This document shows, piece by piece, positions 8,831-51,225 of a DNA stretch of 59,463 nt. Every line of letters starts with the position of its first letter. Within the stretch, counting starts at the first letter, position 1. The stretch comes from Escherichia phage Skure: the sequence record MK672798.1; one strand, given 5' to 3'. The position numbers and the translations under genes are program-made. The notes beneath the pieces were generated by a model, which saw only the letters and a list, made by a program, of their open reading frames with translations, made no database searches and was not told the origin of the DNA.

Positions 8831-9754
8831 ATGGCTACAGGTTCACGTTATTCGTGCTACTACGTCAAAGAAGATGTAAGTAACACTACACCAGCTAGTG
8901 CGAAGTTTACTCCGTTCCGTGTAACCAGCTCCGGTCTGGACATCAATATTGCAACGCTGGAATCTGAAGAACTGCGTGACGATGCTGAAACCGCATACTT
9001 CCGTCTTGGTGCTCGTAGCGTTGAAGGTACTGTAACTGGCGAAATGTCCTTTGGTACATTTGACGATCTTATTGCTGCTGCACTTCGTGGGGAATGGCAA
9101 GACAACGTCCTCAAAGGCGGCATTGTGCGTCAATCGTTTACTTTTGTAGACTATAACGCAGATCTCCCGTCAGGTAAATATACAATTTATCGCGGATGTG
9201 AAGTTAACAGCATGACGTTCTCACTTTCTGCGGAAAACATGACCACAGTGGAGTTTGGCATTGTTGGACGTTCAATGGAAATTGCGGAATCTCTTCCGTC
9301 CGGTGCAACCATTAAAGACCGCACCACTACATCTCCTATGGACGGCTTCTCCGGTCGCTTGCTGGAAAACGGCGAAGAAATCAGTGTTATTACGGAAATC
9401 GGTCTTACTGTTGAAAACGATATTGCCCCGCGCTTTGTTGTTGGATCGAAGTTCTCCATCGAACCGTCTGCTGGTCGTCGTGCTGTAACTGGTACGGCTA
9501 ACGTATACTTCCTGGATAACAAGCTGCGTATGAAGTATCTGGATGAAGTGGAAACTTCAATCAAGTTTGACCTGATTGATCCTACTAATCCGGAACAAAA
9601 ATACACAGTTGAAATTCCGCGCGTGAAGTTTACCGAAGCTCCGCGTCCTATTGACGGCGAAGGTGATATCATGCTTAATATGGGCTATCGCGGTTTGCTG
9701 GACCCAACAACCGCAAGTTCCATCAAAATTACCCGCGTTTTAGCGGCAGCATAA
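8831..9754 (+). CDS. major tail protein
   Basis: 307 aa, upstream of the chaperone pair and tape measure gene. Confidence 0.6.
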   Translation: MATGSRYSCYYVKEDVSNTTPASAKFTPFRVTSSGLDINIATLESEELRDDAETAYFRLGARSVEGTVTGEMSFGTFDDLIAAALRGEWQDNVLKGGIVRQSFTFVDYNADLPSGKYTIYRGCEVNSMTFSLSAENMTTVEFGIVGRSMEIAESLPSGATIKDRTTTSPMDGFSGRLLENGEEISVITEIGLTVENDIAPRFVVGSKFSIEPSAGRRAVTGTANVYFLDNKLRMKYLDEVETSIKFDLIDPTNPEQKYTVEIPRVKFTEAPRPIDGEGDIMLNMGYRGLLDPTTASSIKITRVLAAA

Positions 9755-9769
9755 TATCAAGGATAAGTA

Positions 9770-10177
9770 ATGACCGACACCAAAAAAGCCAAACAAGCTG
9801 TATCTAAAAGCTTTCGTGATTTCAAAACTGTAAGTCGTGCTAACGACCCAGCCAACACCAAACCATTAGATGTGGTTATTCCTGGTGTTGGTAATACAGG
9901 TGAAAAGCTGTATATCCGTAGCCGTTATTGCACAGAATATCGCGAAGCTGAACTGAAAGCGCAACGTCAATTGTTAGCACTCATGCAGGGTAACGACGGT
10001 GAAGTAACGGACAGCATGAAGGAAGATATCCTTACTCGCTCGTTAGCTAACCTTGTTGCAGGTTGGACGTTTGAAGAGCCGCCGACTATTGATAATGTGT
10101 TTGAGTTCTTGACAGAGAACCCAACGGTTCGTGAAGACATTAACGTATTTGCCGCTAAAGATAGTAATTTTTTCTAA
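9770..10177 (+). CDS. tail assembly chaperone (lambda G-like)
   Basis: 135 aa between major tail and tape measure; ends ...AAT TTT TTC TAA with a slippery heptamer. Confidence 0.6.
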   Translation: MTDTKKAKQAVSKSFRDFKTVSRANDPANTKPLDVVIPGVGNTGEKLYIRSRYCTEYREAELKAQRQLLALMQGNDGEVTDSMKEDILTRSLANLVAGWTFEEPPTIDNVFEFLTENPTVREDINVFAAKDSNFF

Positions 10178-10575
10178 AAGCGCGCAGACAGTTAATTGAT
10201 AAGAAGATCCTCCAATGGGAACTAAATAGCAAAGTCCCCGGCGGGGGATCTTCTTTATTATCGCAACTACAAAAGGTTGAAGAACAGTCTGGTAAGACGC
10301 CTCAAAAACTTAAAGACTATCGGGAAAAGGAAATACCTGTTTGTTTTGAGTACCTTTCTAACTTGTTTGATGATTTTTACACAGGAGGTGATTTTAGTTA
10401 TACGGAGTTGCATAACTATCAGACAACTATGCGATTAAGCTTACAGCCGTACGAATGCGAAATACTGCGACAGTTATGGCTTGAAAAGCGCGTGTCTGAA
10501 GCTGAACAAAATGCTAAACTCATGGAAAGTCAAATGCAAAATCAGAATAAAGGTAGAAGGAAAAGGAGAAGATAA
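9770..10575 (+). CDS. tail assembly chaperone -1 frameshift product (lambda GT-like), shift at T TTT TTC 10168-10174
   Basis: The -1 frame is open from 10168 to TAA at 10573-10575 without needing a start codon; the extension ends exactly where the tape measure ATG begins (TAATG). Confidence 0.5.
10168..10174 (+). promoter_or_regulatory. slippery heptamer T TTT TTC for -1 programmed ribosomal frameshift
   Basis: X XXY YYZ heptamer in frame at the last two sense codons of the chaperone gene; -1 frame open downstream to 10575. Confidence 0.5.
10201..10258 (+). promoter_or_regulatory. nested stem-loop downstream of the slippery site
   Basis: Outer stem AAGAAGATCC/GGATCTTCTT enclosing TCCCC-ggc-GGGGA; lies within the frameshift extension ORF. 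Confidence 0.35.
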
Positions 10576-13500
10576 TGGCTGAAACTGCTTCGCTAGTAAT
10601 CAGAGTTGACGCGAAAGGGATTAGCACAGCGGACTCCATGCTGCGTAACCTTGCGCGTACAGGTGACACAGCGGAGCGTTCCGCTCAACGTGTCACTTCA
10701 AGCTATAAAACATTATCCAACACGTCAAACGAGCTTGCAACTGTCACAGGTCGTTTGGATGCTGCAATTGTAGGTATGATTAGCGTTGACACAATTAACC
10801 GTGTTATTTCGCTATCAGACTCCTGGACTATCCTTACTAACAAACTTGAACTAGCTCGTATGGGTAACGAAACCGTTGCGGATTCTCAGCAACGTGTGTT
10901 TGATATTGCGCAGCGTTCCCGTACTAGCTTAGAAGCAACTGCAACTCTGTATTCCCGTCTTCAGCGTGCAATGAAGAATACTGGCATGACGGGGTTGGAG
11001 CTTGGGCGCATCACAGAAACTATCAACAAAGCGATGATTGTTTCTGGTGCAACTTCCCACGAAGCAAGTGCTGCTCTTATTCAGTTTTCGCAGGCTATGG
11101 CTTCCGGCGTTCTTCGCGGTGACGAATTTAGATCGGTTGCAGAACAGGCTCCGCGTTTAACTCAAATTATGTCCGACGCGTTAGGCGTTACCATTGGACA
11201 ATTGCGTGAAATGGCTTACAGCGGCAAGTTAACCGCCGATGTGGTTATCAAATCATTGTCTGGTGCTGCGGATACAATTGATAAAGAATTCAGCCGCACT
11301 ATGCCAACGTTCAACCAACAATGGACGATTGCAACAAACAACCTGACTAAATTTATGGGTGAATCCCAAAAGACTCAAGGTGCGGTCGCTGCATTGGGTC
11401 AGACGTTTGTTGCATTATCTAAAAACTTAGGAACGGTTGTAACGGTTGGTTCAGCTTTAGCCACAGTGATTACCGCCCGTATCATTACGGCAATGCTTGC
11501 TAAGACTAAAGCGTCTATAGCTGCTGCAAAAGCATCACAGATGGAGGCTGCACAGACTGCGGCAACTACTGCGGTTATGCAAAGCTCCATTGGCGTTACT
11601 GCACAAAAGGCGGCTGCGGATCGTGCTGCGTCGCTTGCTGCGTTACAGGTTGCTCGCGGATCATTAGCGGTTGCTAAGGGCACGGCAGCGGAAGCAGGTG
11701 CACGTCTTGCACTTATTAACGCTACCCGTGCACACTCTGCGGCAATTGTGGCGGACGTACAAGCGCGACAGGCGCTTAATGCTGCGCTTAACGCAACCGT
11801 ACCAGCGGCAAGCCGTGCTGCTACAGCAATGAGCGTGCTGCGCGGTGCTATGGGGTTAATTGGCGGTCCGGTTGGTGTAGCAATGCTGGCAGCGGGCGCT
11901 ATTTACTCGTATAAAGCATCGCTGGAAGCTGGTCGTGCTGAAAATAATCAGTTCGCAGATAGCGTTGACAGTGTACGCGATAAATTGATGCAAATGACGG
12001 AAGCTCAGCTGGCAGCTAACGCGGTCAAAGCTAGAGCAATCCTTCCGGAACTTGAAGAGCAACTGAAGCGGGAGCAGAACGCTCTAAAATCTGCAACAGA
12101 AACACAGAAGTTCTATGAAGCACAATTAAAACGCCGTGCCGCGTCCGGTCGTGATACAGCTAGTGCTGAGAAGAACTTACAAATTGCAACGGATAACGTC
12201 AAGCTTGCTGCCGAGCGTGCTGAAGAAGCTCAACGCCGTTACAACAATGTCTTAGAAATGACAAGCCCTGCTATCGAGAAGATAATTCCGTTAGCTCGTC
12301 AGCTTGCTGCTGATATGAAGGCAGTTCTTAACATCAAATCCGGTCCACTTATTGACGAGAAAGTCCTTGACCGTTTTAAAGGTCAGCTAGGTGATGTCAA
12401 CCGTGAGATTGATGTTAACACGGTTAAGGGTGCTGGCAATGCTCGCCAAGCTGCAATCCTTAGTGGACTGTATCAGACGCTGGGCAAGGATGCAGACACC
12501 TATGGAAGTCTAATTCGCAAAGTAGCTATGGGGCAGGACGTTAGCTCAGAGGCAACAAGCGAATCCGCTAAAGAGCTTGTTAAATATGCTCAAGATTTAG
12601 CCCAAGCTCTTGGCAAAAACTACGATCTTGAAGAAGCAGAGAGAAACCGAACTAAAGCGACAAAAGACGGTATTAAAGCAGAACAACAGAACGCCAAAGT
12701 TATTGACGATTTACGCAATAAGCTTAACGAAGTAACCACAGGGGTTAAGGAAAACGCCAAAGCGAAAGCGCAAGCGGTAGCACTTAATAAGCTCAATGCG
12801 TCTGCAACGGCTGCGGAAAAAGCAGAAGTCGTTAGTCTTGCTGCTGCAATTTACGATGCAGAAGAAGCTCAAAAGAAACTGGACGAGCGTAAGAAGAATC
12901 GTAAAGCTGCCGAAGACTTGTTAGGGGAAGGTAGAACAGACTACGCTAAAATTGAATACGAAATGCAAGAAAAGATCATGAAGCTTCATAGGGATCAAGA
13001 AGCAGATGACCTTGAGCATTACAAACTGTATGAGGACGCTAAGACTCAAGTATTGGCGCAAGCTAACCTTCAAAGGGAAAACCTGAATAAAGTTCTTATG
13101 AACAGGATGATATCCTTTTCTCAGGACTCCTTAGGTATTATAATGGATGGTCTGTCACAGGCTGTAAGCCAGCAGAACTTCTTTTATAAAGCTATGTTTG
13201 CAGCACAGAAAGCAATGCAAATCCCGTCAATCCTTGCCAACACGGAAACGGCAGCATCCGCGGCGCTTGCATGGGGTACACAGCAAGGCGGTGCTACAAT
13301 GGGCGCAACAATGGCAGCTATAGTGAAAACTATGGGTTATGCCTCGGCTGCTACTGTGGGTGGCTTAGCAATTGCTGGTATGGCTCACGACGGTATTGAT
13401 AACGTTCCGCGTGAAGGTACGTGGCTGCTGGATAAAGGGGAGCGTGTTCTTAATGCTCCGTCAAATGATAAGCTAAACAGATTTCTGGACAGTCAATCCT

Positions 13501-13691
13501 CACAACAAGGTGGCATGAATATGTCCGGTGGTGTTAGCATTATTCAGTATATCACGGTGCAAGGAAATGGCGATGCCGCACTCACGCAAGCCATGCAGAA
13601 AGCAGCTCGTGATGGCGCAGAGCAGGGATATAACAAAGTTCTTAATGACTTTGCATCCCGAGGAACAATTCGTAGGACTGCAATGGGGTAA
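10575..13691 (+). CDS. tail tape measure protein
   Basis: 1038 aa, Ala/Gln-rich helical protein, largest gene in tail module. Confidence 0.85.
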   Translation: MAETASLVIRVDAKGISTADSMLRNLARTGDTAERSAQRVTSSYKTLSNTSNELATVTGRLDAAIVGMISVDTINRVISLSDSWTILTNKLELARMGNETVADSQQRVFDIAQRSRTSLEATATLYSRLQRAMKNTGMTGLELGRITETINKAMIVSGATSHEASAALIQFSQAMASGVLRGDEFRSVAEQAPRLTQIMSDALGVTIGQLREMAYSGKLTADVVIKSLSGAADTIDKEFSRTMPTFNQQWTIATNNLTKFMGESQKTQGAVAALGQTFVALSKNLGTVVTVGSALATVITARIITAMLAKTKASIAAAKASQMEAAQTAATTAVMQSSIGVTAQKAAADRAASLAALQVARGSLAVAKGTAAEAGARLALINATRAHSAAIVADVQARQALNAALNATVPAASRAATAMSVLRGAMGLIGGPVGVAMLAAGAIYSYKASLEAGRAENNQFADSVDSVRDKLMQMTEAQLAANAVKARAILPELEEQLKREQNALKSATETQKFYEAQLKRRAASGRDTASAEKNLQIATDNVKLAAERAEEAQRRYNNVLEMTSPAIEKIIPLARQLAADMKAVLNIKSGPLIDEKVLDRFKGQLGDVNREIDVNTVKGAGNARQAAILSGLYQTLGKDADTYGSLIRKVAMGQDVSSEATSESAKELVKYAQDLAQALGKNYDLEEAERNRTKATKDGIKAEQQNAKVIDDLRNKLNEVTTGVKENAKAKAQAVALNKLNASATAAEKAEVVSLAAAIYDAEEAQKKLDERKKNRKAAEDLLGEGRTDYAKIEYEMQEKIMKLHRDQEADDLEHYKLYEDAKTQVLAQANLQRENLNKVLMNRMISFSQDSLGIIMDGLSQAVSQQNFFYKAMFAAQKAMQIPSILANTETAASAALAWGTQQGGATMGATMAAIVKTMGYASAATVGGLAIAGMAHDGIDNVPREGTWLLDKGERVLNAPSNDKLNRFLDSQSSQQGGMNMSGGVSIIQYITVQGNGDAALTQAMQKAARDGAEQGYNKVLNDFASRGTIRRTAMG

Positions 13692-13694
13692 AAT

Positions 13695-14279
13695 ATGCTC
13701 ACCTGGCCTGAAGAACTTAGACCGTCCGAGATGGAATGGTATTTAGTCTCAAACTCTGTAGAATTTACAAGCCCCTTCAATGGGGCTTCCCAAACTGTGT
13801 CCTATCCAGGATCTCGATGGGAAGCAACATTAACTTTTAACAATTTGAATGACTGGCAATCAAGAAAGCTGGAATCGACTTTAGCTAAGCTTGACGGTAA
13901 AGCTGGTCGAATTATGCTTCAAGATTTTGGTCGTTGGGGTCGTGCACCGATCGGATCACCTGTGGTTAATGGTGCTAACAATACGGGGACAACTTTATCA
14001 ACTAAAGGCTGGACACCTAACAGAAAGGTTTTATGGGAAGGAGATTACATTGCAGTAAACAATGAATTAAAACTAATAACAGAAGACGCTTGGAGCGATT
14101 CGTCTGGTAATGTAATCTTAAACATTGCACCAATGTTAAGGACCATACCTCCAAATGGTTCGAAGATTGAAACTCAAAAGCCGCAAGGAGCTTTCCGGTT
14201 AGCAGAAAATACTAACGGAGTTAAGCGTCAACCAGCTTTTAATAATTCATTCACTTTAAAATTTTCGGAGGCGTTCTAA
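13695..14279 (+). CDS. minor tail protein (lambda gpM-like position)
   Basis: 194 aa, first gene after tape measure. Confidence 0.45.
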   Translation: MLTWPEELRPSEMEWYLVSNSVEFTSPFNGASQTVSYPGSRWEATLTFNNLNDWQSRKLESTLAKLDGKAGRIMLQDFGRWGRAPIGSPVVNGANNTGTTLSTKGWTPNRKVLWEGDYIAVNNELKLITEDAWSDSSGNVILNIAPMLRTIPPNGSKIETQKPQGAFRLAENTNGVKRQPAFNNSFTLKFSEAF

Positions 14280-14863
14280 TGCTATTTAGTCCATTTAGTG
14301 ACGAACTTCTTACCGCAATGGAGCAGCCGAACGTCGGATTAGTGTTAGCAGCGGAAATAGACTTTCCGTCCGGTGTAACGCGTGTGCATACTGGGACAGG
14401 TGTTGTTGTTATCAATGGTCAAACTTTCCTGGGCGTCGGTACGCTCGGAGACGTAGGATCTGTAACAGAAGAAAACAGCACAAGTTCCAGCACGATGTCA
14501 ATGGCGCTTAGCGGTTTGGACATGAGTCTAGTTGGGGAAACTTTAAACGAAGAAGTCATTGGCCGTAATGTTGTTTGCTATCTAGCTGTAATGAATGATC
14601 AAGGTGTAGTGTCTGCTGCCAATATCTTGTTTGAAGGCTTTATCACAGATACAGCATTACAAGCAGGGCAACAGAACGCATTAAGTTACGTTATATCTAA
14701 TGTGTTTGAAAGATGGTCGCAGGGTTTACCTGATCGTTATACAGATGAAAGTCAACAGCGGCTATATCCGGGCGATCGTTTTTTCCGATATGTTGCACAA
14801 ATGGCTGAACGTTCTATCTTTTGGGGGAGTAAAAAAGATGCGCCAGGTTTCTCATATGAGTAA
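14279..14863 (+). CDS. minor tail protein (lambda gpL-like position)
   Basis: 194 aa, second gene after tape measure. Confidence 0.45.
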   Translation: MLFSPFSDELLTAMEQPNVGLVLAAEIDFPSGVTRVHTGTGVVVINGQTFLGVGTLGDVGSVTEENSTSSSTMSMALSGLDMSLVGETLNEEVIGRNVVCYLAVMNDQGVVSAANILFEGFITDTALQAGQQNALSYVISNVFERWSQGLPDRYTDESQQRLYPGDRFFRYVAQMAERSIFWGSKKDAPGFSYE

Positions 14864-15272
14864 ATTGCCGGGCTGGCAGACACGTTTGTTAACCACAGTA
14901 AAGGAGTTGTCATCGACTCCTTTTTCTTGGGGCGAGAATGATTGCTGCACATTTGCGGCAAGATGTGTTGATGCTCAATATGGTACTAATATCTATGATC
15001 AAATCGCTGGAAAATATAATACAGAACTAGGAAGTAAAAAATTCACTTTGCAAAGAGTTGGAACCTCTTATCTTCCTTTACTTCTGGATACATACCTGAG
15101 CGAGCGGGTTGAAGCAAACTTTGCGCAAAGAGGCGATGTGGTTACATTTGAGGGAGCATTGGGCTTAACTGCTGGCATATTATGGACTGGATATGTATGG
15201 GCTATGGGTCCGAACGGTGTGGAAACATTCCCGCTTAATAAGATCAAAATTACGGATATTTGGAGGGTCTAA
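14838..15272 (+). CDS. tail assembly protein, NlpC/P60-like (lambda gpK-like)
   Basis: Start moved to ATG 14838 (GGGGGAG RBS upstream) instead of 14700; GENDCCTFAARC motif consistent with NlpC/P60 catalytic Cys. Confidence 0.5.
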   Translation: MRQVSHMSKLPGWQTRLLTTVKELSSTPFSWGENDCCTFAARCVDAQYGTNIYDQIAGKYNTELGSKKFTLQRVGTSYLPLLLDTYLSERVEANFAQRGDVVTFEGALGLTAGILWTGYVWAMGPNGVETFPLNKIKITDIWRV

Positions 15273-33759: not shown

Positions 33760-34563
33760 TTACAAGCCGTTCAGGGCTTCCGGTACTGGCATAGGTACGC
33801 GACCAGTCACACCATTAAACTTCTTCCAACGTGCATACTGAGTTTTAACAGTATCTTCGTTCAGACCGTGACGACCTGCCAGATTCAGAACATAAGAGAT
33901 CGGAGCAGGCTGACCCAGCGTAGCGCTAATCTGGTCCATCAGAGCCCAGGCACGACCGCAGGAAGTTTCCGGTTGCGGACGACGAACACCATTCTGTTCA
34001 GGCATACGGTTCGCTTCTTTCGCTTTTTCACGTTCAGCTTTTTCGCGGGCTTTTTCAGCAGCCTTTTCAGCCTGTTTAGCAGCGCGGATCTTGTCTTTGA
34101 AGCCTTTGATAGACGAATCCAGTTCGTCGACCATGCTCTGAGCAGCAGTTACTGCACCGGACAGATCTTCACCTTTGGATTTTTTAACAACTGCTTTCAG
34201 ATCTTTCAGAGCATTCTTTAAATGCTTCAGCTGTTCGGAACCCTTAGATTCTGCTTCCGTAATCTGTTCAACAGTGCTTTCATCGGTAATACCGGATAAA
34301 GCAAACTTCACGGTTTCAACTGCCTGGGAAAGAGCGGTAAATTTATTTTCCGCTTCAGTACGAATTTCAGCTTGTTTCTTTTCAGCGGCAGCTTTTTTCT
34401 CTGCTTCTTTTTTCTCTTTTGCTACGCGTGCAGCTTCAGCGGCAGCGGCTTTTTTAGCTTCTGCGTCGTTAGCAGTAGCTTCTTTCTTTGCAGGCTTAGC
34501 AGATTTTGCAGCGGCAGCAGCGGCTGCGGCAGCAGCGGCTTTCTTATCTTCAATATTACTCAT
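33760..34563 (-). CDS. Ala/Lys/Glu-rich protein with poly-Ala tract and conserved C-terminal domain (function unknown)
   Basis: Start at ATG 34563 (GGAG RBS) rather than GTG 34572; 12-residue poly-Ala; C-terminus ...QYARWKKFNG paralogous to the protein at 50611-51225. Confidence 0.5.
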   Translation of the reverse strand: MSNIEDKKAAAAAAAAAAAKSAKPAKKEATANDAEAKKAAAAEAARVAKEKKEAEKKAAAEKKQAEIRTEAENKFTALSQAVETVKFALSGITDESTVEQITEAESKGSEQLKHLKNALKDLKAVVKKSKGEDLSGAVTAAQSMVDELDSSIKGFKDKIRAAKQAEKAAEKAREKAEREKAKEANRMPEQNGVRRPQPETSCGRAWALMDQISATLGQPAPISYVLNLAGRHGLNEDTVKTQYARWKKFNGVTGRVPMPVPEALNGL

Positions 34564-34690
34564 TTTCTTCACTCCGAATTATTATGGGTTCGTTTGTTAC
34601 CAACGGGGTTAAATGTACCAAAGGATTTTGTGACACGCAACCCCTTACATAAACATTTTTAAAAATATTTTTGATCAGGGTTAGAACTTA

Positions 34691-38196: not shown

Positions 38197-39081
38197 TTAC
38201 TGCTGCCACGGCGGGACTGCTGCTTGTGCCGGATGCGGTTCAGCTTGCTGCTGCGGCTGAGCTTGCTGCTGAGGTGCTGCTGCCTGGCCCGGCTGTGCTA
38301 CCTGCTGCGTCCACGGCTGCTGAGCTGCTTCCGGTGCTACTGGCTGTTGTACCGGAGCTTGCTGCACTGGCTGCTGTGGTGCTGCGTTTTGAGCAGGATT
38401 ATCCCACGGCTGCGGTGCGGCATTCTGCCACGGTTGTGCTGCTGCGCCCTGCTGTGGTGCTGGTTGCTGCACAGGCTGCTGAACTGGTTGCTGTTGCTGC
38501 ACCGGAGCTTGCTGCTGTACAGGCGCTTGCTGTTGCTGTGCAAACGGGTTAGCTGCTGGTTGCTGAGGTGCTGCGCCCGGGAAAGCTGGCTGCTGTGCTG
38601 GCGCACCTGCACCGAACGGGTTAGCTACTGCCGCTTGAGCACCCATTGCTGGAGCACCTGCTTCTTTTTCTGCATACTTAACCGGATCGTTGATGTTAGC
38701 ATAACCGTTAGGCTCGTTGCTGTCTTCATAACCTTCCTGAGAACGAACTTTCAGACGCAGGTTCAGCGGAATGTTATGCAGTTGAGCAGGAGTATCCCAG
38801 CGAATTACGCCAACCGCATGGGAAAGCGCGCCCAGTTGCTCGTATGCAATACGCACAGTATCTTCGTTGTCGTTGATAACGTTGTAACGAGCAAAGATTT
38901 TACGGCCTTTAGCAAAACCATCAATAATGCTAAACGTTACCTGGATCGCCATACCGCCATTTTTGGTCGGTTTAAATTCAGATGCTTCAATTACTGCTTT
39001 ATACCAACCTTTCGGCAATGCGCCGTAAGAAGGTGCTTGATAGCTGCTCGCGTCAAAGTGGAAATTAGTTGGCATAGTCAT
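38197..39081 (-). CDS. putative ssDNA-binding protein with long Gln/Pro/Ala-rich low-complexity C-terminal tail
   Basis: 294 aa; globular N-terminal half then QQPV/QQAP repeats; position between Sak4-like ATPase and nuclease. Confidence 0.4.
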   Translation of the reverse strand: MTMPTNFHFDASSYQAPSYGALPKGWYKAVIEASEFKPTKNGGMAIQVTFSIIDGFAKGRKIFARYNVINDNEDTVRIAYEQLGALSHAVGVIRWDTPAQLHNIPLNLRLKVRSQEGYEDSNEPNGYANINDPVKYAEKEAGAPAMGAQAAVANPFGAGAPAQQPAFPGAAPQQPAANPFAQQQQAPVQQQAPVQQQQPVQQPVQQPAPQQGAAAQPWQNAAPQPWDNPAQNAAPQQPVQQAPVQQPVAPEAAQQPWTQQVAQPGQAAAPQQQAQPQQQAEPHPAQAAVPPWQQ

Positions 39082-50610: not shown

Positions 50611-51225
50611 TTATGCGTCCAGTCCGTTATATTTGCGCCAGGCGTAGAACTGAATGGCGACTGTTGTCCCGTTGTGAGAAGGCATTGCCGCTTTCATTTC
50701 TTTCAGCTCCGGCGTGCGGCCCAGTTTGGCTAAAAGTTTGTCGCCCATTGCCCACACTTCGGCGGTTTTTCCTTTCAGAGGCTTGCGAGCGCCATTTTTG
50801 AAATCACAGCGAGCAGCTTTTGCATCCTGTTTTGGCGCAGCAGCTTTTGGCTCTTCAATTTTGATTTCAGAAACCTGCGTGGCAGCTTTTGCATGTTTCA
50901 TATCTTTCTCTTCCTCCTGCTCCAGAGCTTCGAGGCAGCTTTTGACGATTTCCGGATTTACCATCGGGCGCAGTACCGAGACGCTGGCAGCTGGCGCGGC
51001 GGTTGGTGCTGGGACTTTCTGCTCCGGTTGTTGCGCTTTTTTATGGTCGCGCAGTACCTGAAGGACTTCCTTCTCGACGATGTAAAAACCGATCTCGTCC
51101 TGATGGATAAGTTGTTCGTGTGCATCGCGTGCAACCTGGCCCCAACGGGTCTTAAGGGCGCGGCGTGCATTCGTTTTCATGGTGTAACGCATTTTGTCCT
51201 GTTCGCGGTGAGTTACTTTAGACAT
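50611..51225 (-). CDS. hypothetical protein with C-terminal domain paralogous to the 33760-34563 protein
   Basis: Start at internal ATG (MSKVTHREQ) with AAGGAG RBS; C-terminus ...VAIQFYAWRKYNG. Confidence 0.45.
   Translation of the reverse strand: MSKVTHREQDKMRYTMKTNARRALKTRWGQVARDAHEQLIHQDEIGFYIVEKEVLQVLRDHKKAQQPEQKVPAPTAAPAASVSVLRPMVNPEIVKSCLEALEQEEEKDMKHAKAATQVSEIKIEEPKAAAPKQDAKAARCDFKNGARKPLKGKTAEVWAMGDKLLAKLGRTPELKEMKAAMPSHNGTTVAIQFYAWRKYNGLDA

What the first reader, a model, noticed from the sequence alone, without database searches (positions are those of the whole stretch)
10168..10258. Programmed -1 ribosomal frameshift in the tail assembly chaperone gene
The chaperone ORF ends ...AAT TTT TTC TAA, which contains the slippery heptamer T TTT TTC. 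The -1 frame is open from that point for about 133 codons with no start codon needed and ends exactly where the tape measure ATG begins. This is the conserved G/GT arrangement of long-tailed phages. A nested stem-loop lies about 27 nt downstream, which is farther than typical stimulatory structures.
Basis: partly seen in the sequence, partly recalled or inferred. Interest (0 to 1): 0.5.

Follow-up and report, generated by a model that had tools for sequence, protein, structure and literature searches.

The report
Tail chaperone G/GT ribosomal frameshift site
This is the ordinary, widely conserved -1 ribosomal frameshift that lets a long-tailed phage make a short and a long tail-assembly chaperone from one gene, already annotated in the sister phage Seurat; the only unreported detail is a conserved RNA hairpin that sits unusually far (22-28 nt) downstream of the slip site.

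Summary
ORF G (9770-10177, 135 aa) ends AAT TTT TTC TAA. The in-phase heptamer T_TTT_TTC is at 10168-10174. The -1 frame is open only from 10168, runs 133 codons and stops at 10573-10575, overlapping the tape-measure ATG (10575). It has no start codon for its first 63 codons.

The window is a Seuratvirus-like coliphage (at most 88.6% nt identity to known phages). Phages Seurat and SA80RD already annotate this same site as ribosomal slippage.

The heptamer (once T_TTT_TTA) is in phase in every relative examined across about eight genus-level groups, even at roughly 30-40% protein identity, and lies 0-93 nt from the G stop. The start-less stretch evolves as coding sequence only in the -1 frame. 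PHROG 569 matches G and T as one contiguous protein.

The stem-loop is also real. It spans 10197-10260, with an 11-bp core whose pair probabilities exceed 0.99. It is more stable than synonymous-codon controls, it lies in a trough of synonymous variation, and an equivalent hairpin in the Nonagvirus/Klebsiella clade is kept by compensatory changes. Its 22-28 nt spacing is outside the classical 5-9 nt range, so its role is unresolved.

Verdict: a known kind of feature, correctly interpreted, and of low novelty.

The parts
8831..9754 (+). Tail tube (major tail) protein gene, immediately upstream of G
   Evidence: PF18906 Phage_tube_2, E 6e-41; PHROG 290
9759..9763 (+). Shine-Dalgarno-like AAGGA, 6 nt before the G start codon
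   Evidence: read from the sequence
9770..10177 (+). G: short tail assembly (tape measure) chaperone, 135 aa, 15.2 kDa, the product of standard decoding
   Evidence: ORF; PHROG 569 E 3e-25 and PHROG 313 'tail assembly chaperone' E 7.5e-12; weak PF08748, below its cut-off; mass
10165..10167 (+). TAA in the -1 frame. It closes that frame upstream, so any shift must occur at or after 10168
10168..10174 (+). Slippery heptamer T_TTT_TTC (U_UUU_UUC), P-site UUU and A-site UUC, both read by tRNA-Phe
   Evidence: conserved in phase in all relatives examined; Phe134-Phe135 invariant; motif class efficient in E. coli (PMC4066793)
10175..10177 (+). 0-frame UAA stop directly 3' of the heptamer (possible 'shifty stop' contribution; this adjacency is not conserved family-wide)
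10174..10575 (+). T extension in the -1 frame: 133 codons plus stop. Full GT CDS = join(9770..10174,10174..10575), 268 aa, 31.0 kDa, junction ...DSNFF|LKARR...
   Evidence: PF23812 Phage_TAC_18, 32.4 bits against cut-off 27; PHROG 569 positions 130-256; coding signature only in this frame; tblastn conservation from residue 1; mass
10197..10260 (+). Conserved RNA stem-loop inside the T coding region. Core arms 10203-10213 / 10243-10253 (11 bp), A-U extension 10197-10202 / 10255-10260, small apical hairpin
   Evidence: MFE -29 to -30.7 kcal/mol, z -3.7; rank 30 of 11,879 70-nt windows in the phage; more stable than synonymous-codon permutations; no substitutions in the core in STP-SP5, 0/22 against 12/64 elsewhere; equivalent hairpin with compensatory changes in the Nonagvirus/Klebsiella clade
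10142..10340 (+). Trough of synonymous-site (third-position) diversity among 17 Seurat-like phages, covering heptamer, spacer and hairpin
   Evidence: diversity 0.03-0.11 against about 0.2 background; block 10150-10265 ranks 4 of 371 contiguous blocks
10563..10568 (+). Shine-Dalgarno AAGGAG of the tape measure gene, embedded in the end of T
   Evidence: read from the sequence
10575..13691 (+). Tape measure protein gene. Its ATG overlaps the GT stop (TAATG)
   Evidence: PF20155 TMP_3, E 5e-59; PHROG 339, E 5e-178

Best explanation
This is a lambda-type G/GT tail-assembly-chaperone recoding site.

Most ribosomes translate G (9770-10177) and terminate at UAA 10175-10177, giving the 15-kDa chaperone. 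A minority slip back one nucleotide while the two tRNA-Phe occupy UUU (P site) and UUC (A site) of U_UUU_UUC (10168-10174). They re-pair on UUU_UUU, read CUA as the next codon and continue for 133 codons to 10575. This makes the 31-kDa GT fusion (...DSNFF-LKARRQ...).

By analogy with lambda, G and the G part of GT coat the tape-measure protein encoded immediately downstream, and the T part recruits the tube protein encoded immediately upstream. Neither ends up in the virion, and the fixed low GT:G ratio is set by the slip frequency.

What is shown here: the anatomy, the family-wide conservation of the motif and its phase, -1-frame coding without a start codon, and family membership of the T part. 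What is inferred: the actual slip, its efficiency and the protein-binding roles.

A conserved hairpin (10197-10260) begins 22-28 nt after the heptamer and is under RNA-level selection. I think it most likely modulates ribosome traffic at this site, but at this distance it cannot act as a classical entrance-channel stimulator.
For: Anatomy:
- The frame overlap is only 10 nt (TTTTTTCTAA) and consists of the heptamer plus the stop.
- There is no start codon in the -1 frame for 63 codons.
- Synteny is tube - G - T - TMP.

Homology:
- PHROG 569 spans G plus T as one protein.
- The T part passes Pfam Phage_TAC_18.

Comparative:
- The heptamer is in phase in 17 Seurat-like phages, STP-SP5, 9g/ESCO3/HdK1 and the 9g-type metagenomic/IMG-VR loci, Vid5, PSTCR4/7, the Kpn2-P2 clade, K21lambda1/VLCpiS6a, Baskent_P4_1 and ZQG1. 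T-part identity falls to about 28-44%, and the heptamer sits 0, 3, 39, 48, 51 or 93 nt before the G stop.
- L040 carries T_TTT_TTA instead.
- Phe-Phe is invariant.
- Codon-position variation in the -1 frame is 0.42/0.29/0.62, with 0 stops against 2-8 in the other frames.

Prior annotation: join CDS with a 'ribosomal slippage' note in Seurat and SA80RD.

Motif: U_UU.U_UU.C is in the efficient H_HH.U_UU.Y class in E. coli and is under-represented in E. coli genes (PMC4066793). It is also depleted in this phage.

G/GT biology: PMC5009743.

Hairpin.
Against: - There is no experimental evidence (protein, reporter or ribosome profiling) for this phage or any close relative. Seurat's annotation is itself a prediction, and its genome announcement does not discuss it.
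- Transcriptional insertion of one U in the T6 run would give the identical protein, so sequence analysis cannot formally separate the two.
- No stimulator was found at the canonical 4-10 nt distance. A closing helix starting 10 nt downstream appears only in some folding contexts and has no covariation support.
- G alone is below the Pfam cut-off for Phage_TAC_4 (15.5 against 21.1 bits).
Confidence: 0.9

Rival explanations
1. Transcriptional slippage. RNA polymerase adds one extra U in the T6 run (10168-10173), and standard translation of that minority mRNA yields the same 268-aa protein (AAU UUU UUU CUA...).
For: The run of six T (seven in the Nonagvirus clade and in L040) is conserved. The predicted product is identical, so protein data could not distinguish the two. 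The mechanism is known in bacteria and IS elements (PMC5009743).
Against: From general knowledge of E. coli RNA polymerase, productive slippage needs longer homopolymer runs (about 9 or more, with A6G/A7 in some IS elements), and T6 is short. The motif is always a perfect in-phase X_XXY_YYZ heptamer of a class measured as shift-prone for ribosomes. Demonstrated G/GT cases such as lambda are ribosomal. The conserved RNA structure lies downstream, not in the nascent transcript upstream where it would stimulate polymerase slippage.
Confidence: 0.04
2. Single-tRNA 'shifty stop' slippage is the main route in this clade. A ribosome waiting at UAA (A site) with tRNA-Phe on UUC (P site) slips to UUU and then reads CUA. 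The product is the same, but the trigger is slow termination rather than tandem slippage.
For: UAA directly follows the heptamer in the Seurat-like, Nonagvirus and Kpn2-P2 clades. U_UU.C is the second most shift-prone tetramer in E. coli (PMC4066793).
Against: In Vid5, PSTCR4/7, K21lambda1, ZQG1 and Baskent the stop is 3-93 nt away, yet the full heptamer is retained. This points to tandem slippage as the conserved mechanism. Tetramers alone were barely shifty without a strong stimulator.
Confidence: 0.05
3. There is no recoding. The downstream frame is a separate small gene started internally, as annotated in the BASEL, CSP1C and Greed records (48-aa ORF) and in 9g, Vid5 and PSTCR4.
For: Several GenBank records annotate it this way. 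Internal ATG/TTG codons exist at 10363, 10408 and 10429.
Against: The 63 codons upstream of the first possible start are conserved as protein from the first post-shift residue down to about 35% identity. They have a coding substitution pattern and no stops in nine diverged sequences. The internal starts have no Shine-Dalgarno sequence. The annotated starts differ between records. PHROG 569 covers G plus T contiguously.
Confidence: 0.01
4. The hairpin is unrelated to frameshifting. It could be a weak intrinsic terminator or attenuator, an RNase III or stability element, or an anti-Rho structure protecting the sparsely translated T region, tuning G versus TMP expression.
For: The consensus scan flags 10234-10249 plus CTTCTTTATT as terminator-like. 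The T region is translated by only a minority of ribosomes, so it is exposed (inference). Hairpin position relative to the heptamer is not constant across the family: 6-7, 28, 35 and 54-57 nt.
Against: Terminator-like matches are not above chance (4 against 2.8 +/- 1.9). The U-tract is interrupted and is absent after the Nonagvirus hairpin. Excess structure is specific to the 105 nt right after the heptamer in all 11 lineages tested (mean z -2.49, against -0.3 to -0.6 in five control blocks), whatever the position of the G stop.
Confidence: 0.3

Closest known systems
Phage lambda G/GT tail assembly chaperone -1 frameshift (Levin 1993; Xu, Hendrix and Duda 2004, 2013, 2014; reviewed in PMC5009743)
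   Same: Position between the major tail gene and the tape-measure gene. A short G product and a -1 extended GT. The slippery heptamer lies at the very end of G. T has no start of its own. The arrangement is conserved despite low sequence similarity.
   Different: The heptamer is U_UUU_UUC rather than G_GGA_AAG. No detectable sequence homology to lambda G or T was tested here. This family has a conserved downstream hairpin, whereas, from my own recollection and not checked here, lambda needs no defined 3' structure.
Escherichia phage Seurat CPT_Seurat13/14 (KM236243) and SA80RD_14/15 (OL960575), annotated 'tape measure chaperone', ribosomal slippage
   Same: Orthologous locus with identical heptamer, stop, spacer and hairpin core. 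Fusion of identical length (268 aa) and the same junction.
   Different: The window is a different species-level genome (at most 88.6% nt identity over this locus). Those annotations are predictions without experiment and do not mention an RNA structure.
IS3/IS911-type and dnaX -1 frameshift signals in E. coli (PMC4066793)
   Same: The same class of bacterial heptamer. U_UU.U_UU.C is used by some IS3 members. A downstream hairpin or branched structure is under selection.
   Different: Those stimulators start 4-10 nt after the motif and may be combined with an upstream SD-like element. Here the robust stem starts 22-28 nt away, and I saw no obvious SD-like sequence in the ~24 nt read upstream of the heptamer (by eye; no formal scan).
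Collision-stimulated -1 frameshifting of trailing ribosomes (Smith et al. 2019, PMC6815119)
   Same: The optimal stall-to-slip-site spacing there is 9 codons (27 nt), close to the 28-nt heptamer-to-core-stem distance in the Seurat and Nonagvirus clades.
   Different: In that work the stall was a UGA stop in an artificial reporter. Here the stall would be a hairpin, and in this phage only ribosomes already in the -1 frame reach it. This is entirely untested.

Membership tests
G/GT tail assembly chaperone programmed -1 frameshift of long-tailed phages | Located between the major tail/tube gene and the tape measure gene | tested here: met
   PF18906 tube 8831-9754; PF20155 TMP 10575-13691
G/GT tail assembly chaperone programmed -1 frameshift of long-tailed phages | Second ORF in the -1 frame, overlapping the end of the first, without its own start or RBS | tested here: met
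   -1 frame open 10168-10572; first start-like codon at 10363, without SD
G/GT tail assembly chaperone programmed -1 frameshift of long-tailed phages | In-phase X_XXY_YYZ slippery heptamer inside the overlap | tested here: met
   T_TTT_TTC 10168-10174; background rate 0.34% per codon
G/GT tail assembly chaperone programmed -1 frameshift of long-tailed phages | Arrangement and slip site conserved among diverged homologues | tested here: met
   about eight genus-level groups, with a T_TTT_TTA variant in L040; coding signature in the -1 frame
G/GT tail assembly chaperone programmed -1 frameshift of long-tailed phages | Proteins belong to tail-assembly-chaperone families | tested here: met
   T: PF23812 Phage_TAC_18, 32.4 bits against 27. 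G+T: PHROG 569. G: PHROG 313 'tail assembly chaperone', 7.5e-12. G against PF08748 is only 15.5 against 21.1 bits. No PDB relative by sequence; fold not tested
G/GT tail assembly chaperone programmed -1 frameshift of long-tailed phages | GT fusion actually made at a low fixed ratio, with both products required for tail assembly | not testable with these tools
   needs mass spectrometry, Western blot, reporter and genetics
G/GT tail assembly chaperone programmed -1 frameshift of long-tailed phages | G binds the tape measure protein; T binds the tube protein | not testable with these tools
   inferred from lambda (PMC5009743)
Classical 3' RNA stimulator of bacterial -1 frameshifting | Stable hairpin or pseudoknot downstream of the motif, more structured than expected | tested here: met
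   -29 kcal/mol; z -3.7 against dinucleotide shuffles; z about -2.4 against synonymous permutations; top 0.25% of windows in the phage
Classical 3' RNA stimulator of bacterial -1 frameshifting | Evolutionary conservation of the pairing | tested here: met
   Nonagvirus/Klebsiella clade: 97% of cells paired, 4 pairs with compensatory changes, slid controls at 56% or less. Seurat clade: core invariant, synonymous trough. The register is not shared between clades
Classical 3' RNA stimulator of bacterial -1 frameshifting | [quoted passage not shown] | tested here: not met
   core stem starts 28 nt and extension 22 nt after 10174; ranges from PMC4066793 and PMC5009743. A closing helix at 10 nt is context-dependent and lacks covariation. 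No significant loop-flank pseudoknot pairing
Classical 3' RNA stimulator of bacterial -1 frameshifting | Raises frameshift efficiency when present | not testable with these tools
   needs reporters with disrupting and compensatory mutations
Intrinsic (Rho-independent) terminator | G+C-rich stem directly followed by an uninterrupted U-tract, conserved in relatives | tested here: not met
   consensus match at 10234-10249 is not above chance (4 against 2.8 +/- 1.9); tail CUUCUUUAUU is interrupted; no U-tract after the Nonagvirus hairpin
Programmed transcriptional slippage site | Long homopolymeric A/T run (about 9 or more for E. coli RNA polymerase; A6G/A7 in IS elements) | tested here: inconclusive
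   the run is T6 here and T7 in Nonagvirus. It is shorter than typical, but the threshold comes from general knowledge and was not tested
Any curated Rfam RNA family | Match at gathering score | tested here: not met
   0 matches in the whole window

The most novel reading that the evidence does not exclude
The conserved hairpin 22-28 nt downstream is a genuine frameshift modulator that works at a non-classical distance.

A leading ribosome slowed while melting the stem would sit about 9 codons ahead of the heptamer. That is the spacing at which a stalled ribosome was shown to stimulate -1 slippage of the trailing ribosome in E. coli (PMC6815119).

In this phage only ribosomes already in the -1 frame reach the hairpin. 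This would therefore make GT synthesis dependent on ribosome load, or self-reinforcing, and would tune the G:GT ratio to translation intensity during infection.
Probability: 0.2. Interest if true: 0.55.

Novelty: already known. Interest (0 to 1): 0.2.

Why it matters
For annotation, the window should carry a join(9770..10174,10174..10575) CDS. Many public records of this phage group mis-annotate the locus, with a 48-aa ORF, no feature at all, or G named 'tape measure protein'.

Biologically the frameshift itself adds nothing new to the G/GT paradigm.

The modest point of interest is a covariation-supported, synonymously constrained hairpin specific to the first ~100 nt after the slip site. It occurs across a whole chaperone family, at a distance that existing stimulator searches (4-10 nt) would miss. 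If it proves functional, it would be a natural test case for long-spacer or collision-mediated control of bacterial -1 frameshifting.

Tried and rejected
- **Closing helix.** A branched structure whose closing helix (CAGAC 10185-10189 with GUCUG about 10287-10291, p 0.98 in a 133-nt context) would start 10 nt after the heptamer. I rejected it as unreliable. It disappears in a 160-nt context in several phages, its 3' arm lies in the conserved SGKTP codons, and it shows no covariation.
- **Pseudoknot.** Pairing between the apical loop and the spacer or the 3' flank is no better than in shuffles (z -0.76 and +0.75).
- **Column-by-column homology of the hairpin across clades.** The 5' arm starts at the same column in the Seurat and Nonagvirus clades, but the 3' arm is offset by 5 nt, and Vid5, PSTCR and K21lambda1 use other registers. 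A single family-wide covariance model was therefore not built.
- **What the hairpin tracks.** Neither the distance to the G stop codon nor the distance to the heptamer is constant.
- **Terminator reading.** Not above chance and not conserved.
- **Database searches.** Rfam, tRNA and PDB sequence searches found nothing.
- **Other heptamers opening onto long -1 frames.** The one at 14255 precedes a gene with its own RBS and start. The one at 51037 is in a spurious antisense ORF.
- **Loci search.** The search for related loci with the 7-sequence alignment failed for lack of a conserved block. A 4-sequence alignment worked but returned few loci.
- **Not attempted.** Structure prediction of G/GT was not run, because the alignment rows available were not admissible inputs and the conclusion does not depend on it.
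Full report
**1. What is in the sequence**

The ORF at 9770-10177 (135 aa) ends GAT AGT AAT TTT TTC TAA.
- The heptamer T_TTT_TTC occupies 10168-10174 in X_XXY_YYZ phase.
- In the -1 frame a TAA at 10165-10167 closes the frame immediately upstream. The two frames are therefore simultaneously open only over the 10 nt TTTTTTCTAA.
- From 10174 the -1 frame runs 133 codons to TAA 10573-10575. Its last base is the A of the tape-measure ATG at 10575 (TAATG), which is preceded by AAGGAG at 10563-10568.
- The first ATG/GTG/TTG in the -1 frame is at 10363, 63 codons in, and has no Shine-Dalgarno sequence.
- The predicted products are G (135 aa, 15.2 kDa) and GT (268 aa, 31.0 kDa, junction ...DSNFF|LKARR...).

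**2. More than chance**

- In-phase X_XXY_YYZ heptamers occur at 69 of 20,173 codons (0.34%) in the long ORFs of this window. Only one in-phase position fits in the overlap.
- TTTTTTC is depleted in the window: 9 occurrences on both strands against 20.9 +/- 5.0 in shuffles.
- It is the only in-phase slippery heptamer in G.
- Two other heptamers open onto long -1 frames, and both are trivial. The one at 14255 precedes a gene with its own GGAGG and a coupled ATG. The one at 51037 lies in a spurious ORF antisense to a real gene.

**3. Context and identity**

- The window is a relative of the Seurat/CAjan group of E. coli siphophages (Queuovirinae, Seuratvirus), with at most 88.6% nucleotide identity over this locus.
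- Contigs that are 99% identical at protein level, and identical across the heptamer-to-hairpin segment, exist in IMG/VR and in two metagenome assemblies.
- Upstream lies the tube protein (PF18906, 6e-41) and downstream the tape measure protein (PF20155, 5e-59).
- The -1 extension passes Pfam Phage_TAC_18 (32.4 bits against 27). G alone is only a sub-threshold Phage_TAC_4 match.
- PHROG 569, a 256-position profile, aligns G to positions 11-126 and the extension to 130-256. Family members are therefore contiguous G-T fusions.
- There is no solved-structure relative by sequence and no Rfam family.

**4. Already annotated**

GenBank KM236243 (phage Seurat) and OL960575 (SA80RD) carry a two-piece CDS 'tape measure chaperone' with a 'ribosomal slippage' note at the orthologous base. 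The Seurat genome announcement lists a tape measure chaperone without further comment (PMC4342423).

Other records annotate a 48-aa ORF (BASEL phages, CSP1C, Greed), an internally started ORF (9g, Vid5, PSTCR4), or nothing (CAjan, SLUR phages).

**5. Comparative evidence for recoding**

tblastn with the 133-aa extension finds 74 phage records. The matches start at query residue 1-3 even at 35-44% identity. I reconstructed the junction in a spread of them.

In-phase T_TTT_TTC is present in:
- 17 Seurat-like phages and STP-SP5
- Nonagvirus 9g, ESCO3 and HdK1, and the 9g-type metagenomic/IMG-VR loci
- Vid5
- PSTCR4 and PSTCR7
- the Kpn2-P2 clade
- K21lambda1 and VLCpiS6a
- Pseudomonas phages Baskent_P4_1 and ZQG1

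Further observations:
- Metagenomic locus L040 has T_TTT_TTA at the same position.
- The heptamer lies 0, 3, 39, 48, 51 or 93 nt before the G stop. The motif is conserved, but its adjacency to the stop is not.
- Phe134-Phe135 are invariant in the fusion alignment.
- Across nine diverged sequences, the 63 start-less codons vary at codon positions 1/2/3 by 0.42/0.29/0.62 in the -1 frame. They contain no stop, against 2-8 stops in each other frame.

This excludes an independently initiated downstream gene.

**6. The motif**

Sharma et al. measured all heptamers in E. coli (PMC4066793).
- UUN A-site codons and all-pyrimidine motifs are shift-prone.
- H_HH.U_UU.Y is among the most efficient classes.
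- U_UU.U_UU.C gives more than 0.1% frameshifting without any stimulator.
- The motif is under-represented in genes and is used by some IS3 elements.

**7. The stem-loop**

*Fold in the window.* The region 10168-10270 folds at -30.7 kcal/mol, with z -3.7 against dinucleotide shuffles.
- The robust element is an 11-bp core, GAAGAUCCUCC (10203-10213) paired with GGGGGAUCUUC (10243-10253). Its pair probabilities are 0.99-1.00.
- It is extended by a weaker A-U helix (10197-10202 with 10255-10260) and capped by a small hairpin.
- The 70-nt window containing the hairpin ranks 30th of 11,879 in the phage.

*Evidence for RNA-level selection.*
- (a) Permuting synonymous codons while keeping the protein gives z of -2.3 to -2.5 for the window and -1.1 to -4.0 in ten other lineages.
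- (b) The effect is specific. The 35-codon block directly after the heptamer has mean z -2.49 over 11 lineages. Three G blocks and two later T blocks give -0.3 to -0.6.
- (c) Among 17 Seurat-like phages, third-position diversity falls from about 0.2 to 0.03-0.11 across 10142-10340. Block 10150-10265 ranks 4 of 371 contiguous blocks.
- (d) In the most divergent Seurat-like phage, STP-SP5, the core arms have 0/22 substitutions against 12/64 in the rest of the segment (Fisher p 0.03).
- (e) In the Nonagvirus/Klebsiella-phage clade the amino acids differ (HLLLEW...PGSKT against KKILQW...GGGSS). A hairpin there starts at the same column, 29 nt after the heptamer. In it 97% of cells are paired and four pairs show compensatory double changes, while slid-register controls pair at 56% or less.

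*Caveats.*
- The pairing register is not shared between clades.
- In Vid5 the stem starts 35 nt after the heptamer, and in PSTCR and K21lambda1 54-57 nt after.
- In the two Pseudomonas phages the distance is 6-7 nt, which is the canonical spacing.

**8. What the hairpin might do**

Reviews put 3' stimulators 5-9 nt from the motif, with a minority at 12-15 nt (PMC5009743). Sharma et al. searched only 4-10 nt. At 22-28 nt the stem cannot contact a ribosome that has the heptamer in its P and A sites.

- A closing helix beginning 10 nt downstream appears in a 133-nt context. It is context-dependent and lacks covariation. No pseudoknot pairing stands out.
- One published mechanism fits the geometry. 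A stalled leading ribosome stimulates -1 slippage of the trailing ribosome, optimally at 9 codons or 27 nt (PMC6815119). In this phage, however, only ribosomes already shifted reach the hairpin, and spacing varies across the family. I rate this as a hypothesis with probability about 0.2.
- Alternatives are protection or attenuation of the sparsely translated T region. The terminator-like match is not above chance and is not conserved.

**9. Rivals to ribosomal slippage**

- Transcriptional insertion of one U in the T6 run would yield the identical protein and cannot be excluded by sequence. The run is short for E. coli RNA polymerase (my own knowledge). The motif is always a perfect in-phase heptamer of a shift-prone class, and demonstrated G/GT cases are ribosomal.
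- P-site-only slippage at the adjacent UAA may contribute in this clade. It cannot be the conserved mechanism, because the stop is distant in five lineages.

**10. Verdict**

The finding is real and correctly interpreted. It is a canonical G/GT tail-assembly-chaperone -1 frameshift site, orthologous to one already annotated in phage Seurat, and it is unverified experimentally in this lineage. Novelty is low.

The one addition is a conserved hairpin under selection downstream of the slip site, at a non-classical distance in the enterobacterial clades. Its function remains open.

Noticed in passing
window 38200-38630: The most 'stable' RNA windows in the whole phage are CTG/CAG-rich repeats with roughly 18-nt spacing (8 copies of a 36-nt unit and related families). 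There are no inverted repeats. They lie inside minus-strand ORF 38197-39081 (294 aa), so this is a low-complexity coding region and not an RNA element.
   Followed up: partly
window 14255-14281: An in-phase T_TTA_AAA heptamer sits 24 nt before the stop of ORF 13695-14279. The -1 frame is the next tail gene (14279-14863). That gene has its own GGAGG and a TAATG coupled start, so this is probably coincidence and not a second frameshift.
   Followed up: partly
window 10477-10548: A second trough of synonymous-site diversity among Seurat-like phages lies near the 3' end of T, upstream of the tape-measure Shine-Dalgarno and ATG. It may reflect constraints on TMP translation initiation or another RNA structure.
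   Followed up: no
window, whole (for example 34393 and 34408 on +): TTTTTTC is depleted in the genome (9 against about 21 expected). Two copies lie 15 nt apart, both in phase, in ORF 34175-34612, with -1 frames open for 82-87 codons that extend only 17 codons past that ORF's stop.
   Followed up: no
window 14279-15272: ORFs 14279-14863 and 14700-15272 overlap by 164 nt as listed. The true start of the second (its position suggests a tail-tip module gene; no family search was run) is probably a later codon.
   Followed up: no
L014 (MK373794, phage HdK1) 662-1096: The T frame of HdK1 diverges at its C-terminus (...ELIRARFVLNGKHLILG...). Its tape measure is annotated as a short 'tape measure domain protein'. 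This looks like an indel or sequencing error in that record.
   Followed up: no
L053 (MT713136, Aeromonas phage AP1); L043, L044 (Dyella japonica and Sulfoacidibacillus contigs): A 254-kb Straboviridae record holds a Nonagvirus-like T/TMP fragment on the strand opposite to its annotated genes. Two bacterial assembly contigs of 472 and 652 nt match 9g-type sequence over the heptamer-to-hairpin segment (L044 identical to 9g over 129 nt; L043 over the 91 nt it covers). These are probably contamination or chimeric assembly.
   Followed up: no
L001-L004, L010-L012, L045-L052 (public records of the same locus): Annotation of this locus is inconsistent. Seurat and SA80RD have a join CDS. BASEL, CSP1C and Greed have a 48-aa ORF. 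CAjan and the SLUR phages have nothing. RefSeq and Pharokka-style records name G 'tail length tape measure protein' after PHROG 569's label.
   Followed up: yes
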